From Candidatus Poribacteria bacterium (GTDB taxonomy: Bacteria; Poribacteria; WGA-4E; UBA9662), in contig JAYZAL010000088.1 in the NCBI GenBank assembly GCA_036339735.1, positions 56,286 through 120,285 on the forward strand: 64,000 bases of DNA. Reading direction: 5' to 3'. The translations under genes were made by a program, and so were the position numbers. Of the stretch, positions 1 to 32,875 are shown piece after piece; within the stretch, counting starts at the first letter, position 1, and each line of letters starts with the position of its first letter. Below the pieces are notes generated by a model. The model worked only from the letters and a program-made list of their open reading frames with translations, searched no databases and had not been told where the DNA came from.

Positions 1-1531
1 TAGTCTTGTTCTTTTGAGCTTGTAAAATTTCATCAAGTCGTTTTTGATAATGTATATTATCAGGAGATTTTGATAATGCTTGTCGAATGGTGGCTTCAGC
101 CAGGTGCAACTTGTCTTGACGCAAGTAAACCAGAGCTAGAGTTGCTAATTCTGGTGATGATGGGTTGAGTTTGACTGCTTTTTGTGCAAATTTTTCAGCA
201 TTAACCAAATAAGTTCCAGTTTCAGCGTAGATTTGGGCAATATATAGATAAGGGCGAGAATCGTTTCTCCCACCTTTTATGGCTGTTTGAAAAGCCACTA
301 AAGCTTCATTGGTTTGTCCATTTTCGATACGCAATTGACCAAGCGTTATCATGACATCAGGCCCACAATCACCAAGCTTTACAATCTGTTCATAAACGGA
401 GAGTGCTAAATCAGAATTGCCTTCAGCCAAATGAACTTCGGCCAATCCATGATAAGCTAAAGTTAAACTAGGAGACAATCGAATAGCTTTTTGTAGTAAC
501 TGCTTAGCTTCTTCAAAACGTTGTTGTTTTGTGTAAATCCAACCCAATCTCAGATGTGTTTCCAAAGATTCTGGGCGTAATTGGATGAGACGATCAAAAG
601 CTGAAATAGCAGTCTCAAAATCTCCCATCTGCATATAAATACGACCTAATTGATCCCAAGCCTCACCTATTTCGGGTTGTTCTAATGTAATCATTCTATA
701 GTCGTTCAGGCTAGCTGTCAAATTTTGGTTACGATAATGTAGTTCGGCTATTTCTAGGCGAATTTGGACGTTAGTCGGCTCATCAACTAACATCATTTGT
801 AAATCATGGATTTGGTCAAAGTATTTTTTCAGCGTTTTAAATTGTTTCTGATGATGATTGGCTAACTCACGATTATCTATTTGCTGATAGACTTTTATTA
901 AACCAAAGTGTGGTCGATGATCAAAGGGGTCTAGATCGATCATTTTTTTGAAGTGCTCAATAGCTTTCTGCGTCCGATTTTGTATAAGGGCAATATGACC
1001 CAGTTCTTGATAAGCATCGGAGAAAGTAGAATTTTGTTGGATAGATTGAATGAAAGCGGAGCGAGCATCATCCAATTGTCTCCAAAAGAGATAGACTTTC
1101 CCTATATAGTAATGCGATTCAGCTAAATTAGGCAGAGTTTTTGTGGCTGATTTAGCCTGTTGAAACGCTAAGTCGAGCTGACCTAACTGAAGATAAATTT
1201 CAGCTAACATTACGTGTGTCTGATTAGAAATTAACTCAGTTGGACTAAGATCGAATATTGGGCTTAAAATCTCTGACGCCTTGTGGTAACGGCGCTGCCG
1301 ACGATAACAATCACCCAAATAATAGCGGATCAGAAAGGAAGACGGATTTTTTCTAAGAAGAGGGGACAAGACTCCGATTGCTAAAGGATATGACTCTTGC
1401 TCTATATAGCCAATTGCCAGCTCTAGCTGATGCTTATCGGATGTTGCTGCTGAAAAAAGGAGATTGGAGATTAAGCAGAGTCCAAAAGTCAGACTAAATA
1501 ACTTAGCCGGTGTAGAACCTATACGTTCCAT
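1..1531 (-). CDS. TPR repeat protein with N-terminal signal-like segment (partial; C-terminus lies beyond window start)
   Basis: Minus-strand ATG at 1531-1529 gives MERIGSTPAKLFSLTFGLCLISNLL... followed by repeated TPR-like 34-aa motifs (A/Y/L-rich helices) along the whole 1.5 kb. The ORF runs off the window edge, which is probably why it is absent from the ORF track. It overlaps the stop of the neighbouring gene by 13 nt. Confidence 0.6.
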   Translation of the reverse strand, partial: MERIGSTPAKLFSLTFGLCLISNLLFSAATSDKHQLELAIGYIEQESYPLAIGVLSPLLRKNPSSFLIRYYLGDCYRRQRRYHKASEILSPIFDLSPTELISNQTHVMLAEIYLQLGQLDLAFQQAKSATKTLPNLAESHYYIGKVYLFWRQLDDARSAFIQSIQQNSTFSDAYQELGHIALIQNRTQKAIEHFKKMIDLDPFDHRPHFGLIKVYQQIDNRELANHHQKQFKTLKKYFDQIHDLQMMLVDEPTNVQIRLEIAELHYRNQNLTASLNDYRMITLEQPEIGEAWDQLGRIYMQMGDFETAISAFDRLIQLRPESLETHLRLGWIYTKQQRFEEAKQLLQKAIRLSPSLTLAYHGLAEVHLAEGNSDLALSVYEQIVKLGDCGPDVMITLGQLRIENGQTNEALVAFQTAIKGGRNDSRPYLYIAQIYAETGTYLVNAEKFAQKAVKLNPSSPELATLALVYLRQDKLHLAEATIRQALSKSPDNIHYQKRLDEILQAQKNKT

Positions 1532-2403
1532 TTTTGACGAGCTTGGTGCATAGGGACAGTTTCGCCTTTTTGCCAAGCATAATGACCAATTGGTTCCGAT
1601 CCAACCCAGCGTTCGTCAACCGGTTCATTAGCTGGTTGATAACGTGTATCAGCCGTTAGACGGAAGCGATTAGTTGTATTATCTAATGAGGCATGCATAG
1701 TAAACATACCAAATATTAGAACATCACCAACTTGAAAATTAGTTGTCTGCCACTGTCCACCATATTTATCAATCAATTCGAAAGGGTCGTTTGAAAATGA
1801 ACCAGTAACATGATCTCGGTCCACGTCCATTTGTCCGTATGTTTCTTTGATTATATCAAAACGATGTGAACCCACCAAGATTGCCAGTGGACCTAGCTCT
1901 ATTGGAATATCACCTATGGGCGTCCAACAAGTCAAAACATTATCTGTTCCACGACCCATATAGACAATATCATAATGTGCTCCAGTGAACCCTTTTGGTG
2001 GAACAACCCTTAACCATTTATAATCATAAGTCAAAGCAGTTGTTCCGAAAAATTGGTCAAAAAAATTCATAATCTGTGGGGATTCGACTAAATCTAAAAA
2101 ATTATCATCTCTTGTCATCTCTTTATGACCACCGAAGAAACCACCCCGATGACTGGTTTTTGCCACACCATTCAATAAGGGGAAATCAGTATCAATTTGT
2201 CCTTGAATTGAAAGTTGATTTATCAGGTGCTGTCGAGCGGTCTCCACCAAATTGGCTGGTTGCAGTTTGCGAATCAGTAAATATCCATCTTCTTTGAATC
2301 TCTGATGCAAAGCACTCACTGAATCTAAGATGTCGTTTGATTCTCTTAACCAGCCTAGATATTTCCCACCTAACGTCATTTGGAATTGGTTCATGGTAAC
2401 CAT
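1519..2403 (-). CDS. phytanoyl-CoA dioxygenase (PhyH) family Fe(II)/2-oxoglutarate dioxygenase
   Basis: 294 aa. HxD facial-triad-like motif (GAHYDIVY) plus a distal His (FTMHASLDN) in a PhyH-like double-stranded beta-helix layout. Confidence 0.6.
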   Translation of the reverse strand: MVTMNQFQMTLGGKYLGWLRESNDILDSVSALHQRFKEDGYLLIRKLQPANLVETARQHLINQLSIQGQIDTDFPLLNGVAKTSHRGGFFGGHKEMTRDDNFLDLVESPQIMNFFDQFFGTTALTYDYKWLRVVPPKGFTGAHYDIVYMGRGTDNVLTCWTPIGDIPIELGPLAILVGSHRFDIIKETYGQMDVDRDHVTGSFSNDPFELIDKYGGQWQTTNFQVGDVLIFGMFTMHASLDNTTNRFRLTADTRYQPANEPVDERWVGSEPIGHYAWQKGETVPMHQARQKWNV

Positions 2404-2487
2404 TTATGACTTCTCCTAGATAACAACGTTCTATACAAAAAATTGATGTCGGTTGAAAACAATCATACACTGAATATACTACGGTCT

Positions 2488-3336
2488 TCAACTCACAATG
2501 TTAGTTGTCTCTATTGAGGGCCAAGACCAAATCCTTAGCGCAGTACGCCCTAAAACCCAGGTGAGTTCATCAGCAGTGAAAAATGGCATTTCATTTCTTA
2601 CCACTGACAACGTCTCCGTATAGCTTGCTTTATCAAGACAAACTGGCCAATCCGTTCCCCACATGATTCGATTCGCCCCAAACGATTGATGAACAGATTC
2701 TACAAGGTCGTAAGTATCAACCCACGGGTATTGCTTATGTGAAATAGACCAAGTATGGCTAATTTTGATAAAAACGCGTGGGTAACGGGCTAAATCAATT
2801 AGAAGTTGGCGCTGATTTCTATCATTAATTGGACAGTCTGCCATGTGATCGACAACCACATCCACATCATTATATTGATCTAAAATGTTAGTCAAATCAG
2901 GAAGTCGTTTCGGTTTAGTCAAGACCAGAATAGGAATATTGTGTTTCTCAGCTCTATTAAAAATCGGTCCCATCAAATCTGGTCGAGAAAACCAATCACC
3001 CGAGGAGTCTATTGATGGGCTTAACCGCATTCCTTGCAAACCATGTTCTTCGACCCAGTAACTTAGATGGTCAGCAGCAGATGGGTCTTCAGGGTTAATT
3101 CTTCCTACTCCCACAAATTTGTGAGGGTATTTCCTAACGGTATGAGATACGAAACTGTTATCCCAACGGTAGTGAATAACTTGGACCAAAACTGTTTTTT
3201 CCACGCCGTTTTTATTCATTAGGTCGAGCAACATTTCTGGTGTTGCGTCATCTTTGGGTGGGTTAATCGTCTCTTTAGCCCATGGAAATTTAGGATCATT
3301 TTTCCAAACGTGAACATGAGGGTCAATTATTCTCAC
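2488..3336 (-). CDS. amidohydrolase_2 family metal-dependent hydrolase (TIM-barrel)
   Basis: 282 aa. N-terminal IDPHVHVW metal-binding signature and C-terminal MWGTDWP motif typical of PF04909. Confidence 0.65.
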   Translation of the reverse strand: MRIIDPHVHVWKNDPKFPWAKETINPPKDDATPEMLLDLMNKNGVEKTVLVQVIHYRWDNSFVSHTVRKYPHKFVGVGRINPEDPSAADHLSYWVEEHGLQGMRLSPSIDSSGDWFSRPDLMGPIFNRAEKHNIPILVLTKPKRLPDLTNILDQYNDVDVVVDHMADCPINDRNQRQLLIDLARYPRVFIKISHTWSISHKQYPWVDTYDLVESVHQSFGANRIMWGTDWPVCLDKASYTETLSVVRNEMPFFTADELTWVLGRTALRIWSWPSIETTNIVS

Positions 3337-3715
3337 AGGAAGTTTCCTCTTTTTAAATTTTGGACGATTTCTATAAATAGATTTTCAGCAAGAGAAAACA
3401 AATATCCAGCAACCACAGGGTACCTCTTCACAACTATCTTAGTAATCGTCCGATCAGTTGGTTTACTTCATAAGTACTTTAATCTATCTTGTATCGAGAA
3501 TAAAACCGTAAACGCATGACTGAGTGTTTACTCTTACCTAAGGCTTTCTGGTTTCACGAAGAAGGATAAAAAGACAATCTATCATTCGTTTTCATTTGGA
3601 CTAACGTCGACTGAATCGATTTGATTATCGAGGAATTGCGATTTTGTAATTCTTCACTTTTACGACCGAACGAAAATAACTTAACTGATTATAAATCAAT
3701 ATATTCAGGTGGTGT

Positions 3716-6118
3716 CTATCCTAGAAGCGATTGTTCTAAGACCTGATCAATATGCTTAACAAAAACAAACTTAAGACCACGCTGTGCTTCTTTTGGAATC
3801 TCTGATAAATCTTTTCGATTCTTTTCTGGGGCAATAACTGTTTTGATACCAGCTTGTTTGGCCGCTAACACTTTCTCCTTGAGGCCACCAATCGGTAAGA
3901 CTCGGCCTCGTAACGAAATCTCTCCAGTCATCGCAACCTCATTGGAAACAACCTGATTGGTAGCTAGGGAAGCCAAAGCTGTTGCAATGGTTATACCCGC
4001 AGAAGGACCATCTTTAGGTGTAGCTCCAGCTGGTACATGCAAATGAAAATCGTTTTTTTTGAAAAAATCAGTGTCAATCAACAAGTCTTCAGCCTGTGAT
4101 TTGACATAACTCAGTGCGGCTTGCGCTGACTCTTGCATTACACTTCCAAGCTGACCCGTAACAGTCATTTTACCTTCTCCTTTCATTCGTGTACACTCTA
4201 CAAAGAGAACTTCACCTCCATATGGAGTTACAGATAGACCTGTAACTACACCAATATCACCTTCGCGTTCAGCTACTTCCGATTGAAATTTAATTGGACC
4301 TAAATACGTCTCGATTTTAGAAGCGGAAACATCAATCCGTCGTTTTCGTCCTTGAGCAAACTGGCGGGCTACTTTGCGACAGACAGTCCCCAATTCTCGC
4401 TCCAGGTTTCGTAACCCAGCTTCTCGAGTATAACTACTGATCACTTCTTCTATGGCAGGGTCTTCAAACTGAAGATTTTTGGCCGAAATCCCATTGGCGT
4501 CCAGTTGGCGCGGTACTAGATACTGTTTGGCTATCATCAGTTTTTCTTTTTGAGTATATCCAAGTAATTGCAGAATCTCCATCCGATCCTTTAAAGGCGG
4601 TGGAATAGTATCGAGCTGGTTAGCTGTAGCAATGAACATTACTTTAGAAAGATCAAATGGAACATCAAGGTAATTATCAGCAAAATTATGATTCTGTTCA
4701 GGATCCAATACTTCCAAGAGTGCAGATGCTGGATCTCCCCGAAAATCAGAACTCATTTTATCAAGTTCGTCCAGCATGAAAATCGGATTCTTTGATTCTG
4801 CTTGCCTTAGGCTTTTGATAATTCGACCCGGCATTGAACCAATATAAGTTCTTCGATGTCCACGGATTTCAGCTTCATCATGAACACCACCCAGAGATAT
4901 ACGAACGAACTCTCGTCCCATTGAACGAGCAATCGACCGACCTAAGGACGTCTTACCAACTCCTGGTGGGCCAACAAAACATAGAATTGGGCCTTTCATA
5001 TCTGACTTCAAAGACCGAACAGCTAGATATTCCAGAATTCGGTCTTTGACCTTAGTCAAATTGTAATGATCTTCGTCTAAAATCTGTTGAGCTCGGTCGA
5101 GGTCCAAGTTATCTTTTGTTTCGTGTTCCCAAGGTAAATTAACCATCCAGTCTAGATAGTTTCGACAAACAGTGGCTTCTGGAGAGAATGACTGCATCTG
5201 AGATAAACGTTTTAGCTCTCGCTCAGCTGATTTTAGCGCTTTTTCCGGCATTTCCATTTGCTGTAGTTTATCTCGATATTCTTCAATTTCAGCAGATAAA
5301 TCTTCGGTATCACCTAATTCTTTTTGAATGGCTCGTATTTGCTCTCGCAAGAAATATTCCTTCTGAGACTGATTGATTTCAGCTTCAGCGTCGGACTGGA
5401 TTTTACTCTCTAATTCAACTAAATTCAGTTCCTTGGTTAACATTTTAACCAAGTTTTCCAGTCTTTCCTCGACAGTAACATTTTCGAGCAGTTGCTGCTT
5501 ATCTTCTGTTTTTAAGCTTATGATAGAAGCAATGTAGTCAGCAAGCCGCCCAGGATGATCAATATTATCGGCAATAATGGCAAATTCTTCTTGATAACGA
5601 GAAGAAATAGTTACTATTTGGCTAAATAGATCATTTGCGCTTCTTACCAAGGCTTCAGACTCCATATCACCAAATTTTTCCGAAATCTCATCTTCTAACA
5701 GGGAGACTTCGGCCTTCATGAAGGGGGCTGTATGTAATACTTCATTAATTTCGACCCGAGCTTTGCCTTGAGCCAAAAAGAGAACACTATCGCCATCCTT
5801 TTTATAACGTACAATATGAACCAGTGTTCCGACAGGGCTTAGATCATCAGCAGTTAATTGTTTTGGGTCTTTTTCAATGCTTTGGCGAAACAAACAAAGA
5901 AACCTTTGTTCATTTACCATCGCATATTCAACTGCAGACGACACATTTTCACCTGACAACGCTACATGGTGAGGTGAAAATGGTGGGACTGGGGGCATGA
6001 AGGGGTAAACAACTAAATCTCCTAATACTGGAATAATAGGCAGCTCGTTGCTGATATCAAAGCGAGCTATACCTTCTGATTCTTCGTTTTCCAATGGATT
6101 TTGGTCACTCATCTTCAT
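3716..6118 (-). CDS. lon: ATP-dependent Lon protease (La)
   Basis: 800 aa. LON N-domain, Walker A GPPGVGKTS, and a C-terminal protease domain with PKDGPSAGIT (catalytic Ser) and the lysine region. Confidence 0.95.
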   Translation of the reverse strand: MKMSDQNPLENEESEGIARFDISNELPIIPVLGDLVVYPFMPPVPPFSPHHVALSGENVSSAVEYAMVNEQRFLCLFRQSIEKDPKQLTADDLSPVGTLVHIVRYKKDGDSVLFLAQGKARVEINEVLHTAPFMKAEVSLLEDEISEKFGDMESEALVRSANDLFSQIVTISSRYQEEFAIIADNIDHPGRLADYIASIISLKTEDKQQLLENVTVEERLENLVKMLTKELNLVELESKIQSDAEAEINQSQKEYFLREQIRAIQKELGDTEDLSAEIEEYRDKLQQMEMPEKALKSAERELKRLSQMQSFSPEATVCRNYLDWMVNLPWEHETKDNLDLDRAQQILDEDHYNLTKVKDRILEYLAVRSLKSDMKGPILCFVGPPGVGKTSLGRSIARSMGREFVRISLGGVHDEAEIRGHRRTYIGSMPGRIIKSLRQAESKNPIFMLDELDKMSSDFRGDPASALLEVLDPEQNHNFADNYLDVPFDLSKVMFIATANQLDTIPPPLKDRMEILQLLGYTQKEKLMIAKQYLVPRQLDANGISAKNLQFEDPAIEEVISSYTREAGLRNLERELGTVCRKVARQFAQGRKRRIDVSASKIETYLGPIKFQSEVAEREGDIGVVTGLSVTPYGGEVLFVECTRMKGEGKMTVTGQLGSVMQESAQAALSYVKSQAEDLLIDTDFFKKNDFHLHVPAGATPKDGPSAGITIATALASLATNQVVSNEVAMTGEISLRGRVLPIGGLKEKVLAAKQAGIKTVIAPEKNRKDLSEIPKEAQRGLKFVFVKHIDQVLEQSLLG

Positions 6119-6695
6119 CCTCCTGACGGTTCACTTGAATACCAATCGGTTGTCGTCCAGTTATCATATTTGCTTCAGCCTCGCTATCTAGATTTTGATT
6201 AGTCTTAACTTCAACTACAATCTCCTTAGATTTTCGTTCTTTTTTGGGTATTTTAATTTCCAGAAATCCATTGTCATAACTAGCGGTTGGTGTAACTTCT
6301 TCTACATGAACATTAGGTAAAACTACTCTCCGTTCAAAATGGCCATAGCTTAATCCAGCTTGGTGATAGTGTTGTTTCTTTAGCTCAGTTTTATCTTGAC
6401 GAAAACCACGTATGACCAAGTTATTTTCCTCTAGGCGAATTTTGACGTCATTCTCAGGATCAATTCCAGCGACTTCTAGCTTAACGATAAAACTATCTAC
6501 GGTCTCGTAAATATCCATTGGTGGTCGCCACAAGTCGGTCTCGACATTGGAAGAGGAGAAAGCATCAAATAGTCGCTCAGCCTCACCTTGCATTTCAATT
6601 TTCATTTCAAAAAATTGGTCAATCAGTTCTTTGGAAAACTTCATGCTAATTTTACTCCTGTCGCTGTTGATTTCTCGATTAATGTCTATTTTCAT
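6105..6695 (-). CDS. Hsp20/alpha-crystallin family small heat-shock protein
   Basis: Alpha-crystallin domain motifs (PMDIYET, VKLEVAGI, GFLEIKIPK) and an acidic C-terminal tail. Overlaps the lon start by 14 nt, suggesting translational coupling. The true start may be the internal Met at 6644 (MKFSKEL...). Confidence 0.8.
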   Translation of the reverse strand: MKIDINREINSDRSKISMKFSKELIDQFFEMKIEMQGEAERLFDAFSSSNVETDLWRPPMDIYETVDSFIVKLEVAGIDPENDVKIRLEENNLVIRGFRQDKTELKKQHYHQAGLSYGHFERRVVLPNVHVEEVTPTASYDNGFLEIKIPKKERKSKEIVVEVKTNQNLDSEAEANMITGRQPIGIQVNRQEDEDE

Positions 6696-6737
6696 GTAGT
6701 TAAGTTACTTTTATTGGTTCATATTGTATCGACATCA

Positions 6738-8690
6738 TTAAGGCCAAAATTGATAGAGTGGGGTATTAGTAATGATACTAGCAATGCTCCAAATGCTCCC
6801 GAGGATGTAATCGCCTAGTGCTAAGCCTAGAAAAAACGGAATGGCACGGCGGTAAGACTGTAGACCGCCTTGTTTTAATATCACAGCTTTTAAAAACCAA
6901 GCAACAAATAAACAACACCATAAATTTGCCATCCCCCAGCTATTTGCCATAGCGTAACCAAGAGGGTGGAGAGGCCACCACAAAAACTTAGTTCGAATCA
7001 ACATCATCAAGGTCGTTATTATTACGCCTACTCCCATAAATGCTAAGCCAGGAATATCAACCTCGCGAGGAAATGTTAACCAGCCTTCTAGTTGTCGATA
7101 AACACCTCTTCCGAACCCGAGTGCCCAAGTTTCATAATAACCTGATTCTGCCCCATGGCGATAGTAGCTGTCAAGTAATAGCCAGAATACTACTATTGCA
7201 CCAACTAAAGTAGCCATCAAAATGGAAATCACTATTTGCTTTGAAGGAATCGACCGAGTTTGTGAAATCTTAAATGCTTCCAACATTTGCGGCATTGGAT
7301 GGGCTCGGTAGGCTCGATTAAAAAACATATATAAGGAAAATCCAATGAGGCTACCTGTTCCTATCCGCTGAGTACCGAAAGCCGTCACTAAAATACTATG
7401 TGGATCTATCCTGTGCAAGTCATGTACCAAGAAACCGAGTTCAGCTCTCACACGTGCTATCATAATAGCCAACAAAAAGTAAATCGTAAAAAATAGTAAA
7501 ATTACCCAAGGAGACATACCAATCTGGTAGGAAAAAACACTTAAAAAAGAACAGCCAAAGACAATACCTAGAAAGGCAAATCGGTAGTAAGTGAATTCTC
7601 TAACATCTTCGATTATAGGTTTTAAACCATACTTTATTCCTAAAAGAGACAATAGGTAACGCATGAGAGATTTAAAATGTCCTCTACCGGCCCATAAAGC
7701 AAAGCATAATAAGCCTATGTAAGCACCAAAAGCCTGCTCATTATCGTAAGGGAAACGAGGTATACCACGAAACCCAACTATTTTGCCTACCATCAATTCG
7801 ATCTTGAAAAGAGCATAAAAAAACCAACAAGAAAAAAGTAAATCAAGCGGTATTAAGAAGGCGATACCAATAGCAAATGGGTAAAAGGCAATCTTTACTC
7901 CACCCATCGCATTCCAAGGTCGGGCAGTGAAATAGTGTTGAATAGACTGACGTTTGACCGGTAAATATGGGACTTCAGGGTAAATCGAATTCATCAAATT
8001 CAGAATGCTAATTCCTGCTGCTAAACCGAAACCGAACCAAACTATCCTTCGATGAAAAAATCTGGAATCTGGATTTACCATTTCGAGCGGTAACTGAATG
8101 ATCGGATAAGTTAACCGCTCTCGTTCAGTCCATTGTAATCTCAACAAAATGTTTAGGCAGAGCATGACAATCATTAACACAAGGATAAAAGCAATCCACC
8201 AAACCGCGGGTTTCAGCCATGCATAAATATGATCTTGGGTATAGAGAGTAGAACCTCCTTCGTAATAATGGCGAAGTGCTTTTTCGTCACTGACAGTAAG
8301 CCATTCTGGCAGTTGACGAAGGAATATCTCTCGCCACTCATTTTCTGGTGTGGCGAAACGAAATGGGTGTCCCAAAATCGTGATTAAAATCTCCATCATA
8401 TCGTGGGAACAGAGAGATGAAACCACACATAGCATCACGTAAATAGTTAAAACTTCGGCTTGTGTTAGAACTAGTAAGGAGGAAAGTTGATTCAAAAACA
8501 GACCAATCAAAAGCAACCAGAAAATTATAAAAATAACATTTGATAATGGGTGAATAAGAGTTGGGTGAGTGTATCGAACGACCTCCAACTGTATCAGCCA
8601 AAATACATTAATTGGAATTAAACAGAGAACAATTAGAAAGGATTTGACTGTTAGACCATTCTCGGAAGGTGGATTCACTGATGAATCCAT
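6738..8690 (-). CDS. uncharacterised polytopic membrane protein, paralog 1 of 3 (about 14 predicted TM segments)
   Basis: 650 aa, highly hydrophobic. Shares the conserved motifs FATPENEW...LP.WLTV, RPWNAMG, HPMP.MLE.FKI, WWP.HP.GY and a C-terminal LGDY..GS.WS with the ORFs at 39367..41241 and 50934..52868. Confidence 0.5.
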   Translation of the reverse strand: MDSSVNPPSENGLTVKSFLIVLCLIPINVFWLIQLEVVRYTHPTLIHPLSNVIFIIFWLLLIGLFLNQLSSLLVLTQAEVLTIYVMLCVVSSLCSHDMMEILITILGHPFRFATPENEWREIFLRQLPEWLTVSDEKALRHYYEGGSTLYTQDHIYAWLKPAVWWIAFILVLMIVMLCLNILLRLQWTERERLTYPIIQLPLEMVNPDSRFFHRRIVWFGFGLAAGISILNLMNSIYPEVPYLPVKRQSIQHYFTARPWNAMGGVKIAFYPFAIGIAFLIPLDLLFSCWFFYALFKIELMVGKIVGFRGIPRFPYDNEQAFGAYIGLLCFALWAGRGHFKSLMRYLLSLLGIKYGLKPIIEDVREFTYYRFAFLGIVFGCSFLSVFSYQIGMSPWVILLFFTIYFLLAIMIARVRAELGFLVHDLHRIDPHSILVTAFGTQRIGTGSLIGFSLYMFFNRAYRAHPMPQMLEAFKISQTRSIPSKQIVISILMATLVGAIVVFWLLLDSYYRHGAESGYYETWALGFGRGVYRQLEGWLTFPREVDIPGLAFMGVGVIITTLMMLIRTKFLWWPLHPLGYAMANSWGMANLWCCLFVAWFLKAVILKQGGLQSYRRAIPFFLGLALGDYILGSIWSIASIITNTPLYQFWP

Positions 8691-9811
8691 CCCCGTCCAG
8701 ATTCGATCTGGACGTCTGTGTTTAAACCTTCACACAATTTCTGATATTTTTGGAGTGTAGATGTAGCCTGTTGTCCTTCTGAAATCTGAGGTTGGTATTT
8801 CACCTTTGGGTTTCCGACCCAGACAGGAACTAACTCTATATGCTTAAATTGTCGTTTTTGAAAAACAACTTTTGGTATAACAATTTGGCTGTGTTGCTTG
8901 TCGTATGTTTCGTATATGAGGTCAGCCAAGCTATAAATTATCGGCTTGCCTTCAAATATTTGGATTCCTTGTAGAGTATGTAGGCGTTGAGATAGAACCA
9001 AATCAGCACCTGCAGAGATTAGTGATTGCGCAAAAAACTGCTGCCTTTGGCTGACGATCTCACTTTTTGATTCTTTTCCCCAATGCATCATCACCACCAA
9101 CAAGTCAGCTTGATTCGCCATTTCTTCAGTTCGTTTTATCATGTGAGTATAGAGTGCGCGTGCCACCTTAATCTGTCCATCTTGGCTGAAAGCACCCGCG
9201 TGATAGTAAGTAACAAAGGCAACTTGGACTACTTGACCATTTTTTTGTAGGTTGAACCTGGCAGGTTGTTGTGCTGCATAATCGGAAAGCCCAACACCAA
9301 TTGTCTTAACTCCCATGCGAGTTAAGTGCTGGATAGTATCTTCAACGGCTACTGGACCAAAATCATGCAGGTTGGGGGTTGACAGCGATATCAGGTCCCA
9401 TCCAGCTTGGGCGATAGACGTTGATAGACCAGGTATCGCACGAAAAGACTGTTTTCCTTTCACTTTAGAAAGAGATTGATACTGTGGCTCACCATTTTCA
9501 GAGATACTGGTATTAAGTGTAGCTAACGCAATATCAGCTCCTTGAACCTCGCCCTTAATTAGTTTAAATAGAACATCTAAACCTTGTCGGCGTAGGATAG
9601 GAGTTAATCGACTACCAACTGTAATATCACCACCAACGAGTATTGAAACTTGATCGTTATTCGGATCAGCTTCAGCTAATCCAGTCAGATTGAACCCAAC
9701 AATAAGAAAAGTTATAGGAAGAATAAATCGACGGAGGCTGACCAATAATGAGGGGATTCGACGACATAGAGACATCGTCGCTTCCAGATTCTGGTGAAAA
9801 ATTCTTTTCAT
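8675..9811 (-). CDS. CapA/PGA_cap family metallophosphatase-like protein (poly-gamma-glutamate capsule synthesis-like)
   Basis: 378 aa. Signal peptide from the alternative start at 9775 (MSLCRRIPSLLVSL...), then VGGDITVG, NTSISENG and MMHWGKES (HWGxE) motifs typical of the CapA family. Confidence 0.65.
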   Translation of the reverse strand: MKRIFHQNLEATMSLCRRIPSLLVSLRRFILPITFLIVGFNLTGLAEADPNNDQVSILVGGDITVGSRLTPILRRQGLDVLFKLIKGEVQGADIALATLNTSISENGEPQYQSLSKVKGKQSFRAIPGLSTSIAQAGWDLISLSTPNLHDFGPVAVEDTIQHLTRMGVKTIGVGLSDYAAQQPARFNLQKNGQVVQVAFVTYYHAGAFSQDGQIKVARALYTHMIKRTEEMANQADLLVVMMHWGKESKSEIVSQRQQFFAQSLISAGADLVLSQRLHTLQGIQIFEGKPIIYSLADLIYETYDKQHSQIVIPKVVFQKRQFKHIELVPVWVGNPKVKYQPQISEGQQATSTLQKYQKLCEGLNTDVQIESGRGWIHQ

Positions 9812-9816
9812 CCAGT

Positions 9817-10890
9817 CTAGGGATAGTTATATAGATTACCGGTTTCTGATGAAGATTCCGTAGAGCTAGGATCGGTCGTACTTGTCTGATCTAGCTCTGG
9901 TAACTGGTTAGCCGCAAATTCATCCAAAATGCAAGAGACAGTTTCTTCTGAGTACGCTTGTGAGTCGATGCTAGTTTGGTTTGCTTCCCAGGCCATCCGA
10001 GCAGCAGCTTCGAAATACTCAGCATGACGATAGCTATCGAGGATATCAACACCACGGGAGAAAGTACCGTGACCAGTCCAATACACGACATGACGAAATT
10101 GATCAGAATTCTTATCTGGAAGATCCTTCCCTTGGAATAGTCGTAGACTCTGAAACGACAATTCAGGTATACCTGGAGCTTTCTCCATCACCAATCCAAT
10201 TCCACCAACGCTATCGTATATTATCGGTGTCTCTGGTTCATAACCCTTCAAGAAATCATAAAACTTCTCAGGAACACCATGTTCTGATCGAGAAATCAAA
10301 TTTAGAAACTTAGGTTGTAGGTGTACCAAAGCATTAAATTCGTAATCCCCGAGCTGATCAAAAACTAACATATAGTGAAAAAACTCACTGGTGGGTTTAG
10401 GTAGTTTGTTCCCTGTTCTTTCGAGTTCTGAAATGGTTGGAGTACCATACCTCATCCGGTAGTGAACACCATCTGATTCCATTTCTAATATTGTTACGTT
10501 CAGGGAAGGATGTTCTAATCCAACCAAGTCTAATCTGCATCCAGACTTAGTCAACAAGACATGACGACCAACTAGGTTATTGACAGTAATCGCAGCAGGT
10601 AATCTACCACGTGGAGATTCTTCGATAGGTAGCAGGTAATCCGACCCGACTATTTCTGTCATTAGAGCCCCCATGTTACCAGCTGACCCCCATAAATATC
10701 CATTACGATGGGCATGGCTGCCAGCCCAGCCCATCTGCCCGATCAATGTTCCGATCTCGCTATCAACTCCAATGGGAGCCAAAGTCGGTTGGTATCCTCG
10801 CTCTAGCCACTTTCGATAGCGATAGCTTTGGGCAACAGGAGGGAACTTCTCTTGTGTCAAATAAGGATTGGTTAAACCCGCTGTACTCAT
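9817..10890 (-). CDS. class II aldolase/adducin-family domain protein (divergent; N- and C-terminal extensions)
   Basis: 357 aa. Its motifs align to FucA-type class II aldolases. The phosphate-binding segment WGSAGNMG matches GTAGNVS. SEFFHYMLVFDQLGDYEFNALVHLQP matches SEWRFHMAAYQSRPDANAVVHNHAV, with the second zinc His replaced by Gln. HVVYWTGHGTF matches LLQHHGLI. It ends in an S/T/E-rich low-complexity tail. Confidence 0.55.
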   Translation of the reverse strand: MSTAGLTNPYLTQEKFPPVAQSYRYRKWLERGYQPTLAPIGVDSEIGTLIGQMGWAGSHAHRNGYLWGSAGNMGALMTEIVGSDYLLPIEESPRGRLPAAITVNNLVGRHVLLTKSGCRLDLVGLEHPSLNVTILEMESDGVHYRMRYGTPTISELERTGNKLPKPTSEFFHYMLVFDQLGDYEFNALVHLQPKFLNLISRSEHGVPEKFYDFLKGYEPETPIIYDSVGGIGLVMEKAPGIPELSFQSLRLFQGKDLPDKNSDQFRHVVYWTGHGTFSRGVDILDSYRHAEYFEAAARMAWEANQTSIDSQAYSEETVSCILDEFAANQLPELDQTSTTDPSSTESSSETGNLYNYP

Positions 10891-10903
10891 CCTACTTTTT
10901 TCT

Positions 10904-11191
10904 CTACTTCTTATAAATGATTTGGCCCTCTATTTCGACCATATCCACGATTGCCATAACTACCGAATCTATCGGTTTCCCACTCGTTGAATCGGTATAT
11001 CGAGCGGAACTACCCGCTGCAGTCAAAACCATTTCGCCAATACCAGCTCCCACAGCATCCATTGCAACTGTGTATTGACGTACTAAATGACCGTCTATAT
11101 CAACTGACTGAACAATCATCAATTTGCTACCGATTAGTTTCTCATCTTTCCGAGTGGCAACTAGCGTGCCAACCACCTTTCCCAACGTCAT
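10904..11191 (-). CDS. EutN/CcmL/PduN-family bacterial microcompartment vertex (BMC-P pentamer) protein
   Basis: 95 aa. Aligns along its full length with E. coli EutN. KLMIVQSVDIDG...VAMDAVGAGIGEMVLTAAGSSAR...IDSVVMAIVDMVEIEGQIIYKK matches KLLMVEMIDPQG...VAIDNIGAGTGEWVLLVSGSSAR...VDLCVIGIVDEV..GGQVIF.K. Confidence 0.8.
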   Translation of the reverse strand: MTLGKVVGTLVATRKDEKLIGSKLMIVQSVDIDGHLVRQYTVAMDAVGAGIGEMVLTAAGSSARYTDSTSGKPIDSVVMAIVDMVEIEGQIIYKK

Positions 11192-11923: not shown

Positions 11924-13084
11924 CTAGAAATTAAGCATTATCTGTCGATAAATGTCGACGGCTTGAATTACCTGTTGACATTCCACCCATTCTACTGCCG
12001 AATGGGCTTGGTCTATACTGCCAGGGCCAAGCACAATCGATGGAATACCACGAATGGTAAATTTGCTTGCATCAGTACCATAAGGCACACCAGTAATAGT
12101 TGACTGTCCCAAGATATTTTGACAGGCCCGATGACTAATCTGAACAATTTCCTCATGTTCTTCAGTTTCCATCGCATTATCTAATATGATAGCCTCGACT
12201 GTAGCTTCAAATTCTCTATCTTCATTGGTCATCTGTTCAATTAACTGTTGGAATGGGAATATTGCATCAGATGGTTTCTCTCCGGGTATGGTACGACGGT
12301 CGATCTCAATTACACACTGGTCGGGAACAAAGTTGATTTGCGTTCCTCCTGAAATGAGTCCAATGTTCAATGTTGGGCTCCCAACTAGTGGGTGGTCCTG
12401 GTCATGATATGTAGGAAGAATTTGTTCTTCAATTGCCTTAATTATCTTTGTCATTTGAAGAATAGCATTGACTCCTAAATAAGGCTTAGAACTATGGGCA
12501 GCGACACCTTGTGCTCGGATACGGAATCTGGCTAATCCCTTGTGGCTACGAACCACGGATAAATCAGTTGGTTCAGCTACCACCACTGCGGTAACTGATG
12601 ATTCGTTGGCCAATGCTAAGGCCCCACCAAACCCATTCTCTTCATCGACAACTCCGGCATATTGTATGGTAGAATTTGGCTTAATTCCCGCAATTTTCAG
12701 ATCCTTCATGGCCATCATCATGGCTGCGCCACCCGCCTTAGTATCACAAGATCCTCTACCATACAAGTTTCCTTTTCGGATATGTGGATCAAAAGGTGGT
12801 ATATTCATCATTTCAGCAGATGCTGTATCCATATGACATTCAAAGAGCAAAGTCCGGTCTGAGCGTTTTCCTGGTAAAGTAGCAATCACATTATCTCGGC
12901 CAGGGTAAACAGGTTGTCTTTGGCATGTAATATCTAAATCTGTGAAGAATTTTTCAATGTAGTTAGCTACTTCTACCTCTCCTCTTTGACCACCAGGTAA
13001 ACCAGGATTGACACTCTCAATAGATACTAAATCCTGTAATCTAGCCAAAACTTCGTTACTATGTCTGGACCAAGAGTTATTCAT
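11924..13084 (-). CDS. M20 family metallopeptidase (ArgE/DapE-like deacylase)
   Basis: 386 aa. HMDT metal-binding region, GRGSCDTKAGGAAM, VVDEENG and the overall M20 peptidase/dimerisation layout. Confidence 0.8.
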   Translation of the reverse strand: MNNSWSRHSNEVLARLQDLVSIESVNPGLPGGQRGEVEVANYIEKFFTDLDITCQRQPVYPGRDNVIATLPGKRSDRTLLFECHMDTASAEMMNIPPFDPHIRKGNLYGRGSCDTKAGGAAMMMAMKDLKIAGIKPNSTIQYAGVVDEENGFGGALALANESSVTAVVVAEPTDLSVVRSHKGLARFRIRAQGVAAHSSKPYLGVNAILQMTKIIKAIEEQILPTYHDQDHPLVGSPTLNIGLISGGTQINFVPDQCVIEIDRRTIPGEKPSDAIFPFQQLIEQMTNEDREFEATVEAIILDNAMETEEHEEIVQISHRACQNILGQSTITGVPYGTDASKFTIRGIPSIVLGPGSIDQAHSAVEWVECQQVIQAVDIYRQIMLNF

Positions 13085-13466: not shown

Positions 13467-14648
13467 TCACTTGTTAATCATATTTATGATCAAGGTAGTC
13501 ACGGATATAAAGCTCAAAACTTGAGACCAATTGACTTGGAACTTTTCTGGTATTTCGACTGTATCTCCAGGAGCAAGCCAAATTTGTCCTGACGACTGAT
13601 TCCTTAGATCGTACACTTCTGATTTACCTTCTTTTCTATAAACTAGGACTTTTCGTCGATTCGCGTATTGATCGATCCCACCAGCTAGAGAAATAGCCTG
13701 ACGAACCGAAACCTGCGTTCGATTGCCTTCAGATGTTACCCGTACTAATTGTGGGCCAGGTTGATTAACACGACCTAAAACGTAGATTGGCTCAATTTTG
13801 AAGGCATTAGGAATATACAGAACATCGTTGGGTAATAAATATACGGAGCCCGATCCATCGTCTGAAAGTGGTAAATCTTGCCAAAATTTTTCGGTAGCAG
13901 AGATCGTTTCAATTTTTCCATTTTGGCGCATAATAATACAATTATGTAGGTCAGCCTTATCATGAATAGGGCCACCGGATTTAGCTAACGCTTGATCAAT
14001 CCGAATCTGTTGTCTAAAAAAAACCGGCCCAGGTTTTTGTACTTCCCCTTGAACCTCGGCTCTTTGTAATAAAGGCACATAAACTAGATCACCTGAATGA
14101 ACTAGGATTTGTTCTCTATCGTTTTCTGTGAAGTCATGAGAGCTGAGTTTTCCTTTATAGATCAAAATTACCGATTCCAAATCAGAGTTAATTAAAGTAC
14201 CTCCACCCAAAGCTATTGCTCTATACAAGTCAGTTTTTTCTTCTAGTCCGATACTATAACGACCTGGATTTTTTACATTTCCTCCTACGTATATTTCATT
14301 CTCTTTTAGAATCGGAGCAACCATGACTACCGGGTTTGTGAGTAGCCCTAGCTGTATCAGGTGATCTCGAATCAGCAAATCTGCCTTTCCTTGGCCTACG
14401 ATCATTATATCGCCACCGAAATAGCTGACTTTTCCATCTGGCTGTACAGTAACAGTTTGATTGAAATCTGGTGAGTCAACAACCACAATTTGCAATTGGT
14501 CATTTGGCTTAATTTGGTAAGTCAGAGAGTCCGAAAAGCAGTAAATCGGTAGAAGAAAAATGAGAAAGTGAAAAACTGGTAAATTCAACGGTAGAATAGT
14601 CGGATTTGAATAGGCAAGTATTAGTCGATCAAAAAATCTCTGGTACAT
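13467..14648 (-). CDS. polysaccharide export protein (Wza-like; Poly_export plus SLBB domains)
   Basis: 393 aa. Signal/TM N-terminus, a YQIKPNDQLQIVVVDSPDFN Poly_export signature, and repeated SLBB-like G..PG.Y motifs. Confidence 0.7.
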   Translation of the reverse strand: MYQRFFDRLILAYSNPTILPLNLPVFHFLIFLLPIYCFSDSLTYQIKPNDQLQIVVVDSPDFNQTVTVQPDGKVSYFGGDIMIVGQGKADLLIRDHLIQLGLLTNPVVMVAPILKENEIYVGGNVKNPGRYSIGLEEKTDLYRAIALGGGTLINSDLESVILIYKGKLSSHDFTENDREQILVHSGDLVYVPLLQRAEVQGEVQKPGPVFFRQQIRIDQALAKSGGPIHDKADLHNCIIMRQNGKIETISATEKFWQDLPLSDDGSGSVYLLPNDVLYIPNAFKIEPIYVLGRVNQPGPQLVRVTSEGNRTQVSVRQAISLAGGIDQYANRRKVLVYRKEGKSEVYDLRNQSSGQIWLAPGDTVEIPEKFQVNWSQVLSFISVTTLIINMINK

Positions 14649-16040: not shown

Positions 16041-16613
16041 ATGCTTTATCTTAACTCACTAGAGAATTCAGCCCTGAGTAATCCAGAGAATCGTTTTGCT
16101 ATTTGCCGTAAAACGACGGAGGACATGCCAACGATTCCAGAACTGGCACCAACAGAACCACTATATACTTTGTGGCAAGATAAATCGATTGCGTGGACAG
16201 AGTTCAAGAATCGATACTTGCATGAAATGCGGCAGGAGTTTACAAATAAACTAAGTCAGTTGAAAAGGATTGCTGAATACAGTTTAAAAAACGATCTTAC
16301 TCTCCACTCTCCGGAACCTAATGGCCAAAACACCTATCGATCCTTGTTAGGTGGGATTATCGATGGTATTTGGCAAAAAAACCAACAAACTGGACAAATT
16401 ATTGATTTGGCGTTAGCTCCAGCTGTCAAATCTCAACACAGCCCAGAAAACCAGAAAATGATGCGGACCATAGCGGAAAAATGCGACTATTTTTCCGCTA
16501 TTAAACATTGGTCTGGTGGTCCTGTTAGCTGCGAAGGATGTTATTATTTGGATCGACAAGTATTGGTTTGCCCGCCAACTAATCAAGTTGTGGTCAACTA
16601 TCATTGGGTTTAG
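16041..16613 (+). CDS. DUF488-like protein with C-terminal Cys-rich extension
   Basis: 190 aa. PELAPTEPLYTLW...WTEFKNRYLHEMRQ resembles the second half of the YeaO/DUF488 fold (E..PS.EL...F......W.EF...Y..EL). Its 3' end overlaps the convergent gene at 16594 by 20 nt. Confidence 0.4.
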   Translation: MLYLNSLENSALSNPENRFAICRKTTEDMPTIPELAPTEPLYTLWQDKSIAWTEFKNRYLHEMRQEFTNKLSQLKRIAEYSLKNDLTLHSPEPNGQNTYRSLLGGIIDGIWQKNQQTGQIIDLALAPAVKSQHSPENQKMMRTIAEKCDYFSAIKHWSGGPVSCEGCYYLDRQVLVCPPTNQVVVNYHWV

Positions 16614-22671: not shown

Positions 22672-22695
22672 TCTTCTGGGTCGTTCAACTTGTTG

Positions 22696-22974
22696 CTAAC
22701 AACCCCCTCCCATAGCCGGCAAAAAATGTACTTCTGAGTTAGGTCCGATAGTTGATCGCATACCTCTGTCGATCAACACACCATCAACATAGACACCAAT
22801 ATAAGGGCTAATACGTTCAATACCATCATCGTGGTGGCATAGCCGATCTTTCACACCAGGGAACTCCGCTTCCATATTGTCCAATAATTCTCGTATCGTT
22901 GTTCCCGTAATTTCAACTTGACTTTTTTCGTTAGTCAAATCACGCATCAAGGAAGGAATAGAAACAATGGCCAA
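22696..22974 (-). CDS. MoaD/ThiS-family ubiquitin-like sulfur-carrier protein
   Basis: 92 aa beta-grasp-like sequence ending ...FLPAMGGGC. The glycine-rich C-terminus is typical of the family, with one extra Cys after the Gly run. Confidence 0.55.
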   Translation of the reverse strand: MAIVSIPSLMRDLTNEKSQVEITGTTIRELLDNMEAEFPGVKDRLCHHDDGIERISPYIGVYVDGVLIDRGMRSTIGPNSEVHFLPAMGGGC

Positions 22975-23058
22975 AACTTAACCCATAGTTGAAGTGTTCG
23001 GATAATTTTCCCAATCTATAAACCAAAGGTAATCAATAATCGCAATAGAGAGGGGTCT

Positions 23059-25299: not shown

Positions 25300-25781
25300 T
25301 ATAGGTCGTCCTCTCCGTTATCTGCAGCATCCAAGACAGCACGCACAATCTTGTCATATCCGGTGCAACGACAGAGGTTTCCAGCCAACCAGAACCGAAC
25401 TTCCTTCTCAGTTGGATTGGGGTTACTCTCAAGTAAAGCTTTTGCATTCATAATGAACCCTGGTGTACAAATACCGCATTGCAAGGCGGCATGCTCCAAG
25501 AATTTTTGCTGCAGTGGGTGTAACCCTTCAGGTGAAGCAACACCTTCGATAGTTTCGATTTTATTTCCCTCGGCCTCTACACCTAACATACAACATGAGT
25601 TAACAGGTCGACCTTCGACCATTATGGTGCACGCACCACAGTTCCCATTGTTACATCCTTCTTTAGCACCTGTTAAATCAAGATCGTCTCGAAGAACTTC
25701 GAGCATACTCTGTCGGGGCTCGCATAAAAACTCAACACTGTCACCGTTAATTTGCGTCTGTACATGAACTTTTCTTGACAT
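25299..25781 (-). CDS. (2Fe-2S)-binding small subunit of molybdenum hydroxylase (CoxS-like)
   Basis: 160 aa. Two [2Fe-2S] cysteine clusters: CNNGNCGAC (plant-ferredoxin type) and CGICTPG...CRC. Confidence 0.9.
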   Translation of the reverse strand: MSRKVHVQTQINGDSVEFLCEPRQSMLEVLRDDLDLTGAKEGCNNGNCGACTIMVEGRPVNSCCMLGVEAEGNKIETIEGVASPEGLHPLQQKFLEHAALQCGICTPGFIMNAKALLESNPNPTEKEVRFWLAGNLCRCTGYDKIVRAVLDAADNGEDDL

Positions 25782-30465: not shown

Positions 30466-30502
30466 ATTTTTATCTCCAAATCTGATATTTTTTTTCAGGC
30501 AA

Positions 30503-32874: not shown

Positions 32875-32875
32875 T

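What the first reader, a model, noticed from the sequence alone, without database searches (positions are those of the whole stretch)
6738..8690. Three-member paralogous family of large uncharacterised polytopic membrane proteins (member 1; inside the eutN-to-lon gene string)
Three ORFs of 624-650 aa (6738..8690, 39367..41241 and 50934..52868) share co-linear motifs: ATPENEW..LP.WLTV, RPWNAM, HPMP.QLEGFKI, FLWWP.HP.GY and a C-terminal LGDY..GS.WS...I. They have about 14 hydrophobic segments each and appear to be roughly 30-40% identical by eye. I cannot assign them to any characterised transporter or glycosyltransferase family from the motifs. A threefold expansion within 46 kb suggests a lineage-specific function.
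Basis: seen in the sequence. Interest (0 to 1): 0.7.

Follow-up and report, generated by a model that had tools for sequence, protein, structure and literature searches.

The report
Divergent OPT-fold transporters of Poribacteria
Three distantly related copies of an uncharacterised bacterial membrane-protein family (Pfam DUF6785/DUF6784) have the otherwise unique fold of the plant Yellow-Stripe/OPT nutrient importers, so they are most likely proton-driven uptake carriers whose substrates are still unknown.

Summary
Three intact ORFs of 650, 624 and 644 aa are co-linear homologues, 32-37% identical, with BLASTP E-values of 1e-94 to 1e-141.

They belong to a catalogued but uncharacterised family. 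All three match Pfam DUF6785 (E about 1e-150) plus DUF6784. No paper in the searched library mentions either name.

The most likely function is cation-coupled, elevator-type secondary transport by a deep bacterial branch of the OPT superfamily.

The three copies are not a local expansion. Each belongs to its own orthologue group conserved across Candidatus Poribacteria. The family has more than 5,000 clusters at 50% identity and also occurs in Armatimonadota and SAR202.

Substrates are unresolved because gene neighbourhoods vary. Only paralog 1 has conserved synteny: CapA-like PGA_cap, then the DUF6785 gene, then Lon, with Hsp20 between them in the pelagic genomes.

Interest is moderate: a large DUF family is assigned by fold to a known transporter superfamily.

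The parts
6738..8690 (-). Paralog 1, 650 aa. DUF6785 covers residues 15-513 (nt 7152..8648) and DUF6784 covers residues 550-650 (nt 6741..7043). The predicted fold is OPT/Yellow-Stripe.
39367..41241 (+). Paralog 2, 624 aa, with a TTG start (N-terminus uncertain by a few residues). DUF6785 covers residues 16-494 (nt 39412..40848) and DUF6784 covers residues 525-623 (nt 40939..41235). The predicted fold is OPT/Yellow-Stripe.
50934..52868 (-). Paralog 3, 644 aa. DUF6785 covers residues 9-506 (nt 51351..52844) and DUF6784 covers residues 544-643 (nt 50940..51239). It is assigned to the same fold by homology; no model was made.
   Evidence: ORF. Pfam E 1.9e-147 and 6.4e-34. It is 100% identical to P0121 on Tara Oceans contig k127_1537754. 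Orthologues are 80% and 55% identical.
8675..9811 (-). CapA-like PGA_cap protein (metallophosphoesterase-type) with an N-terminal membrane anchor. Its stop overlaps the start of paralog 1 by 16 nt. It is the only conserved operon-type partner found.
   Evidence: Pfam PF09587, E 1.6e-40. The overlap is read from the coordinates. The PGA_cap-then-DUF6785 order is kept in L008-L014, where the orthologues are 67-96% identical.
6105..6695 (-). Hsp20 small heat-shock protein, 42 nt downstream of paralog 1. It overlaps lon by 14 nt.
   Evidence: Pfam PF00011, E 2.1e-19. It is kept in the two pelagic relatives L008 and L009.
3716..6118 (-). Lon protease, the last gene of the same-strand string.
   Evidence: Translation. 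The Lon cluster lies downstream of the DUF6785 orthologue in L008-L013.
9817..11191 (-). Upstream end of the string: a class-II-aldolase-like ORF (9817..10890) and a lone EutN/CcmL microcompartment vertex protein (10904..11191).
   Evidence: Aldolase_II E 6e-8. EutN_CcmL E 2.5e-27. The aldolase-like gene is syntenic in L008 and L010-L014.

Best explanation
The three ORFs are ancient paralogs of the DUF6785/DUF6784 family. This family is a very divergent, bacteria-specific branch of the OPT (oligopeptide transporter / Yellow-Stripe-like, TC 2.A.67) superfamily.

Shown here:
- Each protein is one continuous fold of about 14-16 helices. Pfam's two DUF models are the two ends of a single fold, not separate domains.
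- That fold superposes over more than 500 residues on barley HvYS1 and on no other solved fold.

Inferred by analogy with HvYS1 and other OPTs:
- A transport ('core') domain is built from two inverted-repeat halves containing discontinuous helices and hairpins. It slides against a scaffold domain like an elevator.
- This movement carries a small organic solute inward together with protons or another cation.
- The invariant acidic and basic residues in the putative core are the best candidates for coupling-ion and substrate sites. They are E79, E116/N117 in TPENEW, R413-x-R415-A-E417 and P467...E471 in PMPxQLEGF.
- The three copies belong to different orthologue groups and so probably carry different substrates.

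Substrate identity is not resolved. Candidates are oligopeptides or gamma-glutamyl compounds, and carbohydrate-derived solutes. Paralog 1 is probably co-expressed with a membrane-anchored CapA-like ectoenzyme. It may take up, or less likely export, that enzyme's product.
For: Sequence family: DUF6785 plus DUF6784 at E 1e-147 to 1e-158 in all three.

Fold:
- The AF2 models were built without templates: pLDDT 91.1 / pTM 0.92 and pLDDT 90.0 / pTM 0.91.
- In Foldseek against the PDB, only 7wsr_A and 7wst_A are significant (E 2e-8, probability 1.0, TM 0.65-0.70). All other hits have E above 0.1 and TM about 0.1.

Sequence bridge to OPT:
- 5 of 48 family members hit Pfam OPT PF03169, best E 2.3e-6.
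- The hits are co-linear. Residues 350-657 match profile positions 342-616 of 623, spanning DUF6785 into DUF6784. Two reach 27.0 bits against the cut-off of 25.8.

Family is real and old:
- 5,184 clusters at 50% identity with E<=1e-3, of which 1,213 have E<=1e-30.
- At least 581 loci in GTDB species representatives, in Poribacteria, Armatimonadota and SAR202.
- Each paralog has separate orthologue series.

Transporter-like behaviour:
- The genes are mostly stand-alone with varying neighbours.
- One gene overlaps by 4 nt the end of a CUT1 sugar ABC operon in SAR202. One lies next to a LacI regulator. Three lie in tandem after an Opp-type ABC operon.

Specificity positions: positions fixed within each orthologue group but different in all three groups are about twice as dense in the putative core as in the scaffold (13/250 against 9/368, Fisher p=0.08). 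This is suggestive only.
Against: - No window protein hits Pfam OPT even at E<=1.
- A profile of 48 family members finds no PDB sequence, HvYS1 included.
- The classical OPT motifs NPG and KIPPR are absent from all 48 aligned members.
- The structures are predictions and only one OPT-superfamily structure was available for comparison.
The core/scaffold boundaries and the equivalence of conserved Glu/Arg residues to HvYS1 Asp446/490/494 are therefore inferred from helix order, not measured.
- No transport, energy-coupling or substrate data exist for any family member.
- Neighbourhoods give no consistent substrate signal. The Gfo/Idh/MocA adjacency seen at paralogs 2 and 3 is not enriched family-wide: 4 of 86 loci within +-2 genes.
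Confidence: 0.75

Rival explanations
1. OPT-like fold but a different job. The protein could act as an exporter, for example of peptides produced by the co-located Lon protease or of a polymer handled by the CapA-like partner. It could instead be a non-transporting sensor ('transceptor') or a membrane scaffold for the PGA_cap ectoenzyme.
For: Paralog 1 overlaps PGA_cap and is followed by hsp20-lon. The PGA_cap, DUF6785, Lon order is conserved in L008-L013, and PGA_cap-then-DUF6785 also in the truncated L014. CapA homologues have been linked to poly-gamma-glutamate export (general knowledge, not tested here).
Against: This synteny is confined to one orthologue group: 8 of 86 loci have PGA_cap adjacent, all in Poribacteria. 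All characterised OPT members are cation:solute uptake symporters (PMC3061005). Most family members are stand-alone genes beside catabolic or uptake genes. No poly-gamma-glutamate synthetase genes (CapB/CapC) were identified next to PGA_cap among the annotated ORFs.
Confidence: 0.13
2. GT-C-type glycosyltransferase, O-antigen/polysaccharide polymerase or another lipid-linked-sugar enzyme. The first reader listed this as an alternative.
For: The proteins are large and polytopic with conserved loop motifs rich in Pro, Trp and Glu. Polysaccharide-related genes lie in the window (Poly_export/SLBB at 13467..14648, an epimerase at 38248..39162, a sulfotransferase). A single E=1.4 phmmer hit to a glycosyltransferase chain was found.
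Confidence: 0.02
3. Member of the APC/LeuT, MFS or another common secondary-transporter fold that is merely too divergent for sequence detection.
For: The Foldseek list contains BetP, ApcT, DUR3, vSGLT and similar proteins at ranks 3-50.
Confidence: 0.02
4. Spurious ORFs or pseudogenes with no function.
For: None, beyond the unusual TTG start of paralog 2.
Against: All three are full-length and match Pfam models end to end. There are thousands of homologues with conserved length and more than 60 positions that are at least 90% conserved across 96 sequences.
Confidence: 0.005

Closest known systems
Barley Yellow Stripe 1 (HvYS1, PDB 7wsr/7wst) and the YSL clade of the OPT superfamily
   Different: Only 11-14% identity, and no sequence-level hit between the family profile and HvYS1. 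It is bacterial rather than plant. The substrate is very unlikely to be Fe(III)-phytosiderophore. The Cys250-Cys671 disulphide, the sterol-dependent dimer and the Asp446/490/494 proton sites of HvYS1 could not be mapped. In this family the conserved acidic residues are glutamates.
OPT family sensu Pfam PF03169 / TC 2.A.67, including the fungal/plant PT clade (Opt1/Hgt1 and others) and the prokaryotic clusters 4 and 5 of Gomolplitinant & Saier 2011
   Same: Size matches that of prokaryotic OPTs (about 590-650 aa; PMC3061005). About 16 membrane helices. Weak co-linear PF03169 matches in some members. A role as a stand-alone secondary carrier is likely. A non-peptide substrate (xylo-oligosaccharide) has already been proposed for a prokaryotic OPT subcluster from gene context.
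   Different: The window proteins do not reach PF03169 at all. The NPG and KIPPR signature motifs are absent. The family has its own invariant motifs: TPENEW, PWNA, TRxRAELG, PMPxQLEGFK and WWPxHPxGY. PF03169- or BLAST-seeded surveys, such as that described in bioRxiv 10.64898/2026.08.27.747422, would probably miss this family, given its weak or absent PF03169 signal.
Pfam DUF6785 (PF20581) + DUF6784 (PF20580); NCBI 'DUF6785 family protein'
   Same: The three ORFs are full-length, high-scoring members. NCBI names close homologues exactly this way.
   Different: These entries carry no function, and the fold is split into two models. Here the two models are shown to be one OPT-like fold. Some JGI records label members 'Ca2+/Na+ antiporter', which nothing in this analysis supports.

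Membership tests
Pfam DUF6785/DUF6784 family | Whole-protein score above the gathering cut-offs of PF20581 (25 bits) and PF20580 (26.4 bits), in that order along the protein | tested here: met
   Scores are 527/126.8, 491/103.6 and 492.3/116.6 bits for paralogs 1-3, with essentially full-length profile coverage.
OPT superfamily (TC 2.A.67; Pfam PF03169) | Sequence match to PF03169 above its gathering score (25.8 bits) | tested here: not met
   The three window proteins have no PF03169 hit at E<=1. Among homologues, 5 of 48 hit (best E 2.3e-6). P0028 and P0165 reach 27.0 bits and P0160 reaches 22.9 bits, all co-linear with the C-terminal half of the profile.
OPT superfamily (TC 2.A.67; Pfam PF03169) | Three-dimensional fold of the only solved member found (HvYS1: YS-core plus scaffold, inverted repeats) | tested here: met
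OPT superfamily (TC 2.A.67; Pfam PF03169) | Conserved NPG and KIPPR motifs (Koh et al. 2002, as cited in PMC3061005) | tested here: not met
   A regular-expression scan found 0 of 3 window proteins and 0 of 48 aligned family members with NPG or K[ILV]PPR.
OPT superfamily (TC 2.A.67; Pfam PF03169) | About 16 transmembrane segments in a protein of about 590-800 aa | tested here: inconclusive
   Length is 624-650 aa. The DSSP assignments of the models show about 14-17 long helices, some of them broken. Hydropathy gives about 12-13 peaks. An exact count needs membrane-embedding analysis of the coordinates.
OPT superfamily (TC 2.A.67; Pfam PF03169) | Internal duplication detectable between the two halves | tested here: not met
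   hhalign of the N-half profile against the C-half profile gives probability 0.3% and E 0.22. The repeat, if present, is structural only, as in HvYS1.
OPT superfamily (TC 2.A.67; Pfam PF03169) | Cation (H+):solute symport of peptides, glutathione, metal chelates and similar substrates | not testable with these tools
   This requires uptake assays. Only context evidence is available, and it is inconsistent.
GT-C glycosyltransferases / O-antigen polymerases | GT-C membrane core fold or a Pfam match (PMT, ArnT, Wzy_C and similar) | tested here: not met
APC/LeuT-fold transporters | 5+5 inverted-repeat LeuT fold | tested here: not met

The most novel reading that the evidence does not exclude
DUF6785/DUF6784 may be a third deep clade of the OPT superfamily, beside PT and YSL, that Pfam-OPT-based surveys have missed. 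It has diversified into many orthologue groups in Candidatus Poribacteria, with several copies per genome, tandem triplets and three copies in this 64-kb window. Under this reading it would be a major route for uptake of dissolved organic matter in that phylum. It would also carry substrates outside the known OPT repertoire, for example breakdown products of sulfated glycans or sugar acids. One subfamily would be functionally coupled to a CapA-like ectoenzyme and the Lon/Hsp20 stress module.
Probability: 0.3. Interest if true: 0.55.

Novelty: new variant of a known kind. Interest (0 to 1): 0.4.

Why it matters
A family with more than 5,000 clusters at 50% identity is currently labelled only 'domain of unknown function'. 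Here it receives a concrete, testable mechanistic assignment: an OPT/Yellow-Stripe-fold, elevator-type secondary transporter.

This assignment extends the OPT superfamily well beyond what its Pfam model detects. According to Gomolplitinant & Saier (2011; PMC3061005), prokaryotic members had not been characterised biochemically. HvYS1 was the only OPT-fold structure found in the PDB copies searched.

It also points to a multi-copy transporter family in Poribacteria, an uncultivated phylum of sponge symbionts and pelagic heterotrophs. Knowing the substrates would bear on what these organisms take from their host or from seawater.

The advance is an annotation by fold, not a new kind of biological system, so its importance is moderate.

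Tried and rejected
- NCBIfam scan of the three proteins gave no hits.
- Literature search for DUF6785, DUF6784, PF20581 or PF20580 found 0 papers.
- phmmer and profile hmmsearch against all PDB sequences found no HvYS1 hit. Queries were paralog 1, the 48-sequence profile, and the two most OPT-like homologues. Only chance-level hits appeared, so residue-level mapping onto HvYS1 proton and substrate sites was not possible.
- The afdb50 fold library was not available.
- hhalign of the N-half against the C-half showed no significant internal repeat.
- An Rfam scan of the whole window, looking for a riboswitch that might reveal a ligand, gave 0 hits.
- A promoter/terminator scan of the eutN-lon string found counts equal to the shuffled expectation, so it is uninformative about operon structure.
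- Neighbour clustering over 86 loci found no family-wide partner. Recurrent neighbours were Gfo/Idh/MocA, Laminin_G_3, FG-GAP/ASPIC, FGE-sulfatase, PhyH, sulfatase, SGL, MR_MLE and SDR. These reflect synteny blocks among related Poribacteria and generally abundant gene families. Gfo/Idh/MocA is not enriched next to the gene.
- The idea that the repeated 386-aa ORFs were IS transposases was rejected. They are an M20 peptidase, two Gfo/Idh/MocA oxidoreductases and one ORF without a Pfam hit.
- The GT-C, APC/LeuT and artefact readings were rejected (see rival explanations).
- The distribution of specificity-determining positions between core and scaffold shows only a trend (p=0.08).
Full report
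**1. The observation**

The three ORFs are present at exactly the stated coordinates. They are 6738..8690(-) of 650 aa, 39367..41241(+) of 624 aa, and 50934..52868(-) of 644 aa.

Paralog 2 begins at a TTG, the first possible start after the upstream stop. An AAGGA lies about 15 nt upstream. Its N-terminus aligns in register with the other two.

The proteins align over their whole length with few gaps (A1). BLASTP gives 35%, 37% and 32% identity with E-values of 3e-141, 2e-141 and 3e-94. Paralog 3 deviates most.

The 'eutN-to-lon string' is real. EutN_CcmL lies at 10904..11191, followed on the same strand by a weak class-II-aldolase-like ORF, PGA_cap, paralog 1, hsp20 and lon.

**2. Sequence family**

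All three proteins are full-length members of Pfam DUF6785 (PF20581, 491-527 bits). Each also carries the C-terminal DUF6784 (PF20580, 104-127 bits).

NCBIfam has no model for them. No paper in the searched library mentions either DUF name or accession. NCBI names close homologues 'DUF6785 family protein'. Some JGI records call members 'Ca2+/Na+ antiporter', which nothing here supports.

**3. Source organism and distribution**

Paralog 3 is 100% identical to a protein on a 72.9-kb Tara Oceans contig (ERR868426, k127_1537754). Paralog 1 is 96% identical to a gene of the Candidatus Poribacteria MAG SAT10 (L008). The window therefore comes from a pelagic poribacterium.

The family is large:
- An exhaustive phmmer search of 1.84 billion representatives finds 5,184 clusters at 50% identity with E<=1e-3. 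Of these, 1,213 have E<=1e-30.
- A scan of GTDB species representatives returns at least 581 loci. The best 80 are almost all Poribacteria, often with several loci per genome. A few come from Armatimonadota/Chthonomonadaceae and one from a SAR202 MAG.

Each window paralog has its own orthologue series:
- Paralog 1: 95-96%, 77-79% and 59-71% identity.
- Paralog 2: 98%, 89%, 81% and 64-69%.
- Paralog 3: 80-85%, 69-78% and 55%.

The paralogs are only 32-37% identical to each other. They are ancient subfamilies, not a recent local triplication. Elsewhere, true tandem triplets do occur (L001-L003).

**4. Fold**

An AlphaFold2 model of paralog 1 was built from a 48-sequence alignment without templates. 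It is confident: pLDDT 91.1, pTM 0.92.

**5. Sequence bridge to OPT**

The window proteins do not hit Pfam OPT (PF03169). However, 5 of 48 aligned family members do, with a best E of 2.3e-6.

The matches are co-linear:
- P0028 residues 350-500 match profile positions 342-487.
- P0160 residues 355-614 match positions 344-596.
- P0165 residues 394-657 match positions 357-616 of 623.

Two of these just exceed Pfam's gathering score, at 27.0 against 25.8 bits. The matched stretch runs from the C-terminal half of DUF6785 through DUF6784. Together with the more than 500-residue structural alignment, this shows that the two DUF models describe one fold.

Three tests came out negative:
- The classical OPT signature motifs NPG and KIPPR are absent from all 48 sequences (motifs as cited in PMC3061005).
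- A family profile does not find HvYS1 by sequence.
- No sequence-level internal repeat is detectable.

The family is thus best described as a very divergent branch of the OPT superfamily, not an ordinary PF03169 member.

**6. Likely mechanism**

HvYS1 is a proton-driven symporter proposed to work as an elevator. A transport domain built from two inverted-repeat halves, with helical hairpins and a discontinuous helix, moves against a scaffold/dimerisation domain. All characterised OPTs are cation:solute uptake symporters. By analogy, I infer the same mode of action here.

Across 96 family members, the residues conserved in at least 90% of sequences include a small set of charged or polar positions in the regions that correspond, by helix order, to the transport domain. 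These are E79, T114-P-E116-N117-x-W119, R413-x-R415-A-E417-L-G419 and P467...E471. Elsewhere the conserved set includes R184/E189/E191, Q319, R566, H575 and K601.

TPENEW and PMPxQLEGF each follow a broken helix in their half of the protein. They look like pseudo-symmetric partners. I propose them as the ion- and substrate-binding elements. This is inference, because model coordinates could not be inspected.

Positions fixed within each of the three orthologue groups but different among all three are about twice as dense in the putative core as in the scaffold. The counts are 13/250 against 9/368, with Fisher p=0.08. This is compatible with substrate diversification but not significant.

**7. 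Substrate clues from gene context**

Most family genes are stand-alone with changing neighbours. Clustering of all ORFs in 86 loci found no family-wide partner.

Recurrent neighbours include Gfo/Idh/MocA, Laminin_G_3, FG-GAP/ASPIC, FGE-sulfatase, sulfatase, PhyH, gluconolactonase-like SGL, MR_MLE, SDR, xylose-isomerase-like TIM and fucosidase. These have a carbohydrate-catabolism flavour, but they are also generally abundant in these genomes.

The Gfo/Idh/MocA genes next to paralogs 2 and 3 in the window are not an enriched association. Only 4 of 86 loci have one within two genes.

Context outside Poribacteria is independent of this synteny and also mixed:
- In a SAR202 MAG the gene overlaps by 4 nt the MalK-type ATPase of a CUT1 sugar ABC operon.
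- In another MAG it lies between an ABC ATPase and a LacI regulator.
- In three Poribacteria loci a tandem triplet follows an Opp-type ABC operon.

Known OPT substrates include oligopeptides, glutathione, metal-nicotianamine/phytosiderophores, folate and peptidoglycan fragments. Xylo-oligosaccharides have been proposed for one prokaryotic subcluster from gene context. The substrate here remains open.

**8. The paralog-1 locus**

Paralog 1's start overlaps by 16 nt the stop of a membrane-anchored CapA-like PGA_cap gene. It is followed after 42 nt by hsp20, which overlaps lon by 14 nt.

The order aldolase-like, PGA_cap, DUF6785, Lon is conserved in other Poribacteria species representatives whose orthologues are 67-96% identical (L008-L014). 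Some of these carry an extra 223-aa gene, and some lack hsp20. This is the one robust functional link found. It is restricted to this orthologue group.

It suggests co-expression with an extracytoplasmic phosphoesterase-like enzyme and with a proteostasis module. Whether the carrier imports that enzyme's product or exports something cannot be decided here. Simple promoter and terminator scans were uninformative, and no riboswitch was found anywhere in the window.

**9. Comparison with known families, and verdict**

By mechanism and fold, these proteins resemble HvYS1/OPT carriers. By strict sequence membership they are members of DUF6785/DUF6784 and fail the PF03169 threshold and the NPG/KIPPR motif tests. 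GT-C, APC/LeuT and artefact readings are excluded.

Novelty is that of a new, deep variant of a known transporter superfamily, obtained by fold assignment of a large DUF family. Interest is moderate (0.4). Confidence in 'OPT-fold secondary transporter' is about 0.75. It is higher, about 0.9, for the fold alone, and much lower for any specific substrate.

Noticed in passing
window 44197..46203 (+): A 668-aa soluble ORF has no Pfam hit at E<=1e-3. It lies between an unannotated 386-aa ORF and a DUF488 gene. It is large and completely unannotated.
   Followed up: partly
window 42712..43872 (-) and 50066..50557 (+): Two further ORFs, of 386 aa and 163 aa, have no Pfam hit. The 163-aa ORF lies about 380 nt beyond the 3' end of paralog 3, on the opposite strand (convergent).
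   Followed up: no
window 10904..11191 (-) with 9817..10890 (-): A lone EutN/CcmL microcompartment vertex gene sits beside a weak class-II-aldolase-like ORF. No BMC shell (BMC-H) genes were identified among the annotated ORFs of the window. The aldolase-like gene is syntenic with the PGA_cap-DUF6785-Lon block in other Poribacteria.
   Followed up: partly
window 8675..9811, 11924..13084, 28391..29377, 32152..32970: Glutamyl-themed genes are scattered through the window: CapA-like PGA_cap, an M20 peptidase, a RimK-type glutamate ligase and a C26 gamma-glutamyl hydrolase. This could hint at poly- or gamma-glutamyl metabolism relevant to paralog 1. It was not tested.
   Followed up: no
window 29398..30525, 37154..38314, 53395..54555; also 1519..2403, 30503..31309; 54954..55667, 55787..56470; 16041..16613, 46477..47178: Other multi-copy families occur in the same 64 kb: three Gfo/Idh/MocA oxidoreductases, two PhyH dioxygenases, two adjacent F5/8-type-C lectin-like proteins and two DUF488 proteins. 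The window is generally rich in paralogous families.
   Followed up: partly
L001-L003 (ENA ERZ25766727 / ERZ25074053), locus positions about 5900-12000: In further Poribacteria genomes from ENA metagenomes, three DUF6785 genes lie head to tail. In two loci they come directly after an Opp-type ABC operon and a PhyH gene. This is a true tandem expansion, unlike the dispersed copies in the window.
   Followed up: partly
L075 (SAR202 MAG JASMAO010000047.1), 1781..6885: The DUF6785 gene start overlaps by 4 nt the stop of a MalK-type ATPase in a CUT1 sugar ABC-transporter operon. This is an unusual pairing of a primary and a putative secondary transporter in one operon.
   Followed up: partly
window 20836..26653 (-): A UbiD-family decarboxylase with an FMN reductase lies next to a three-subunit xanthine-dehydrogenase/CO-dehydrogenase-type molybdoenzyme operon (MoCoBD, Fer2_2, FAD_binding_5). 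This is ordinary catabolic content and was noted only for annotation.
   Followed up: no
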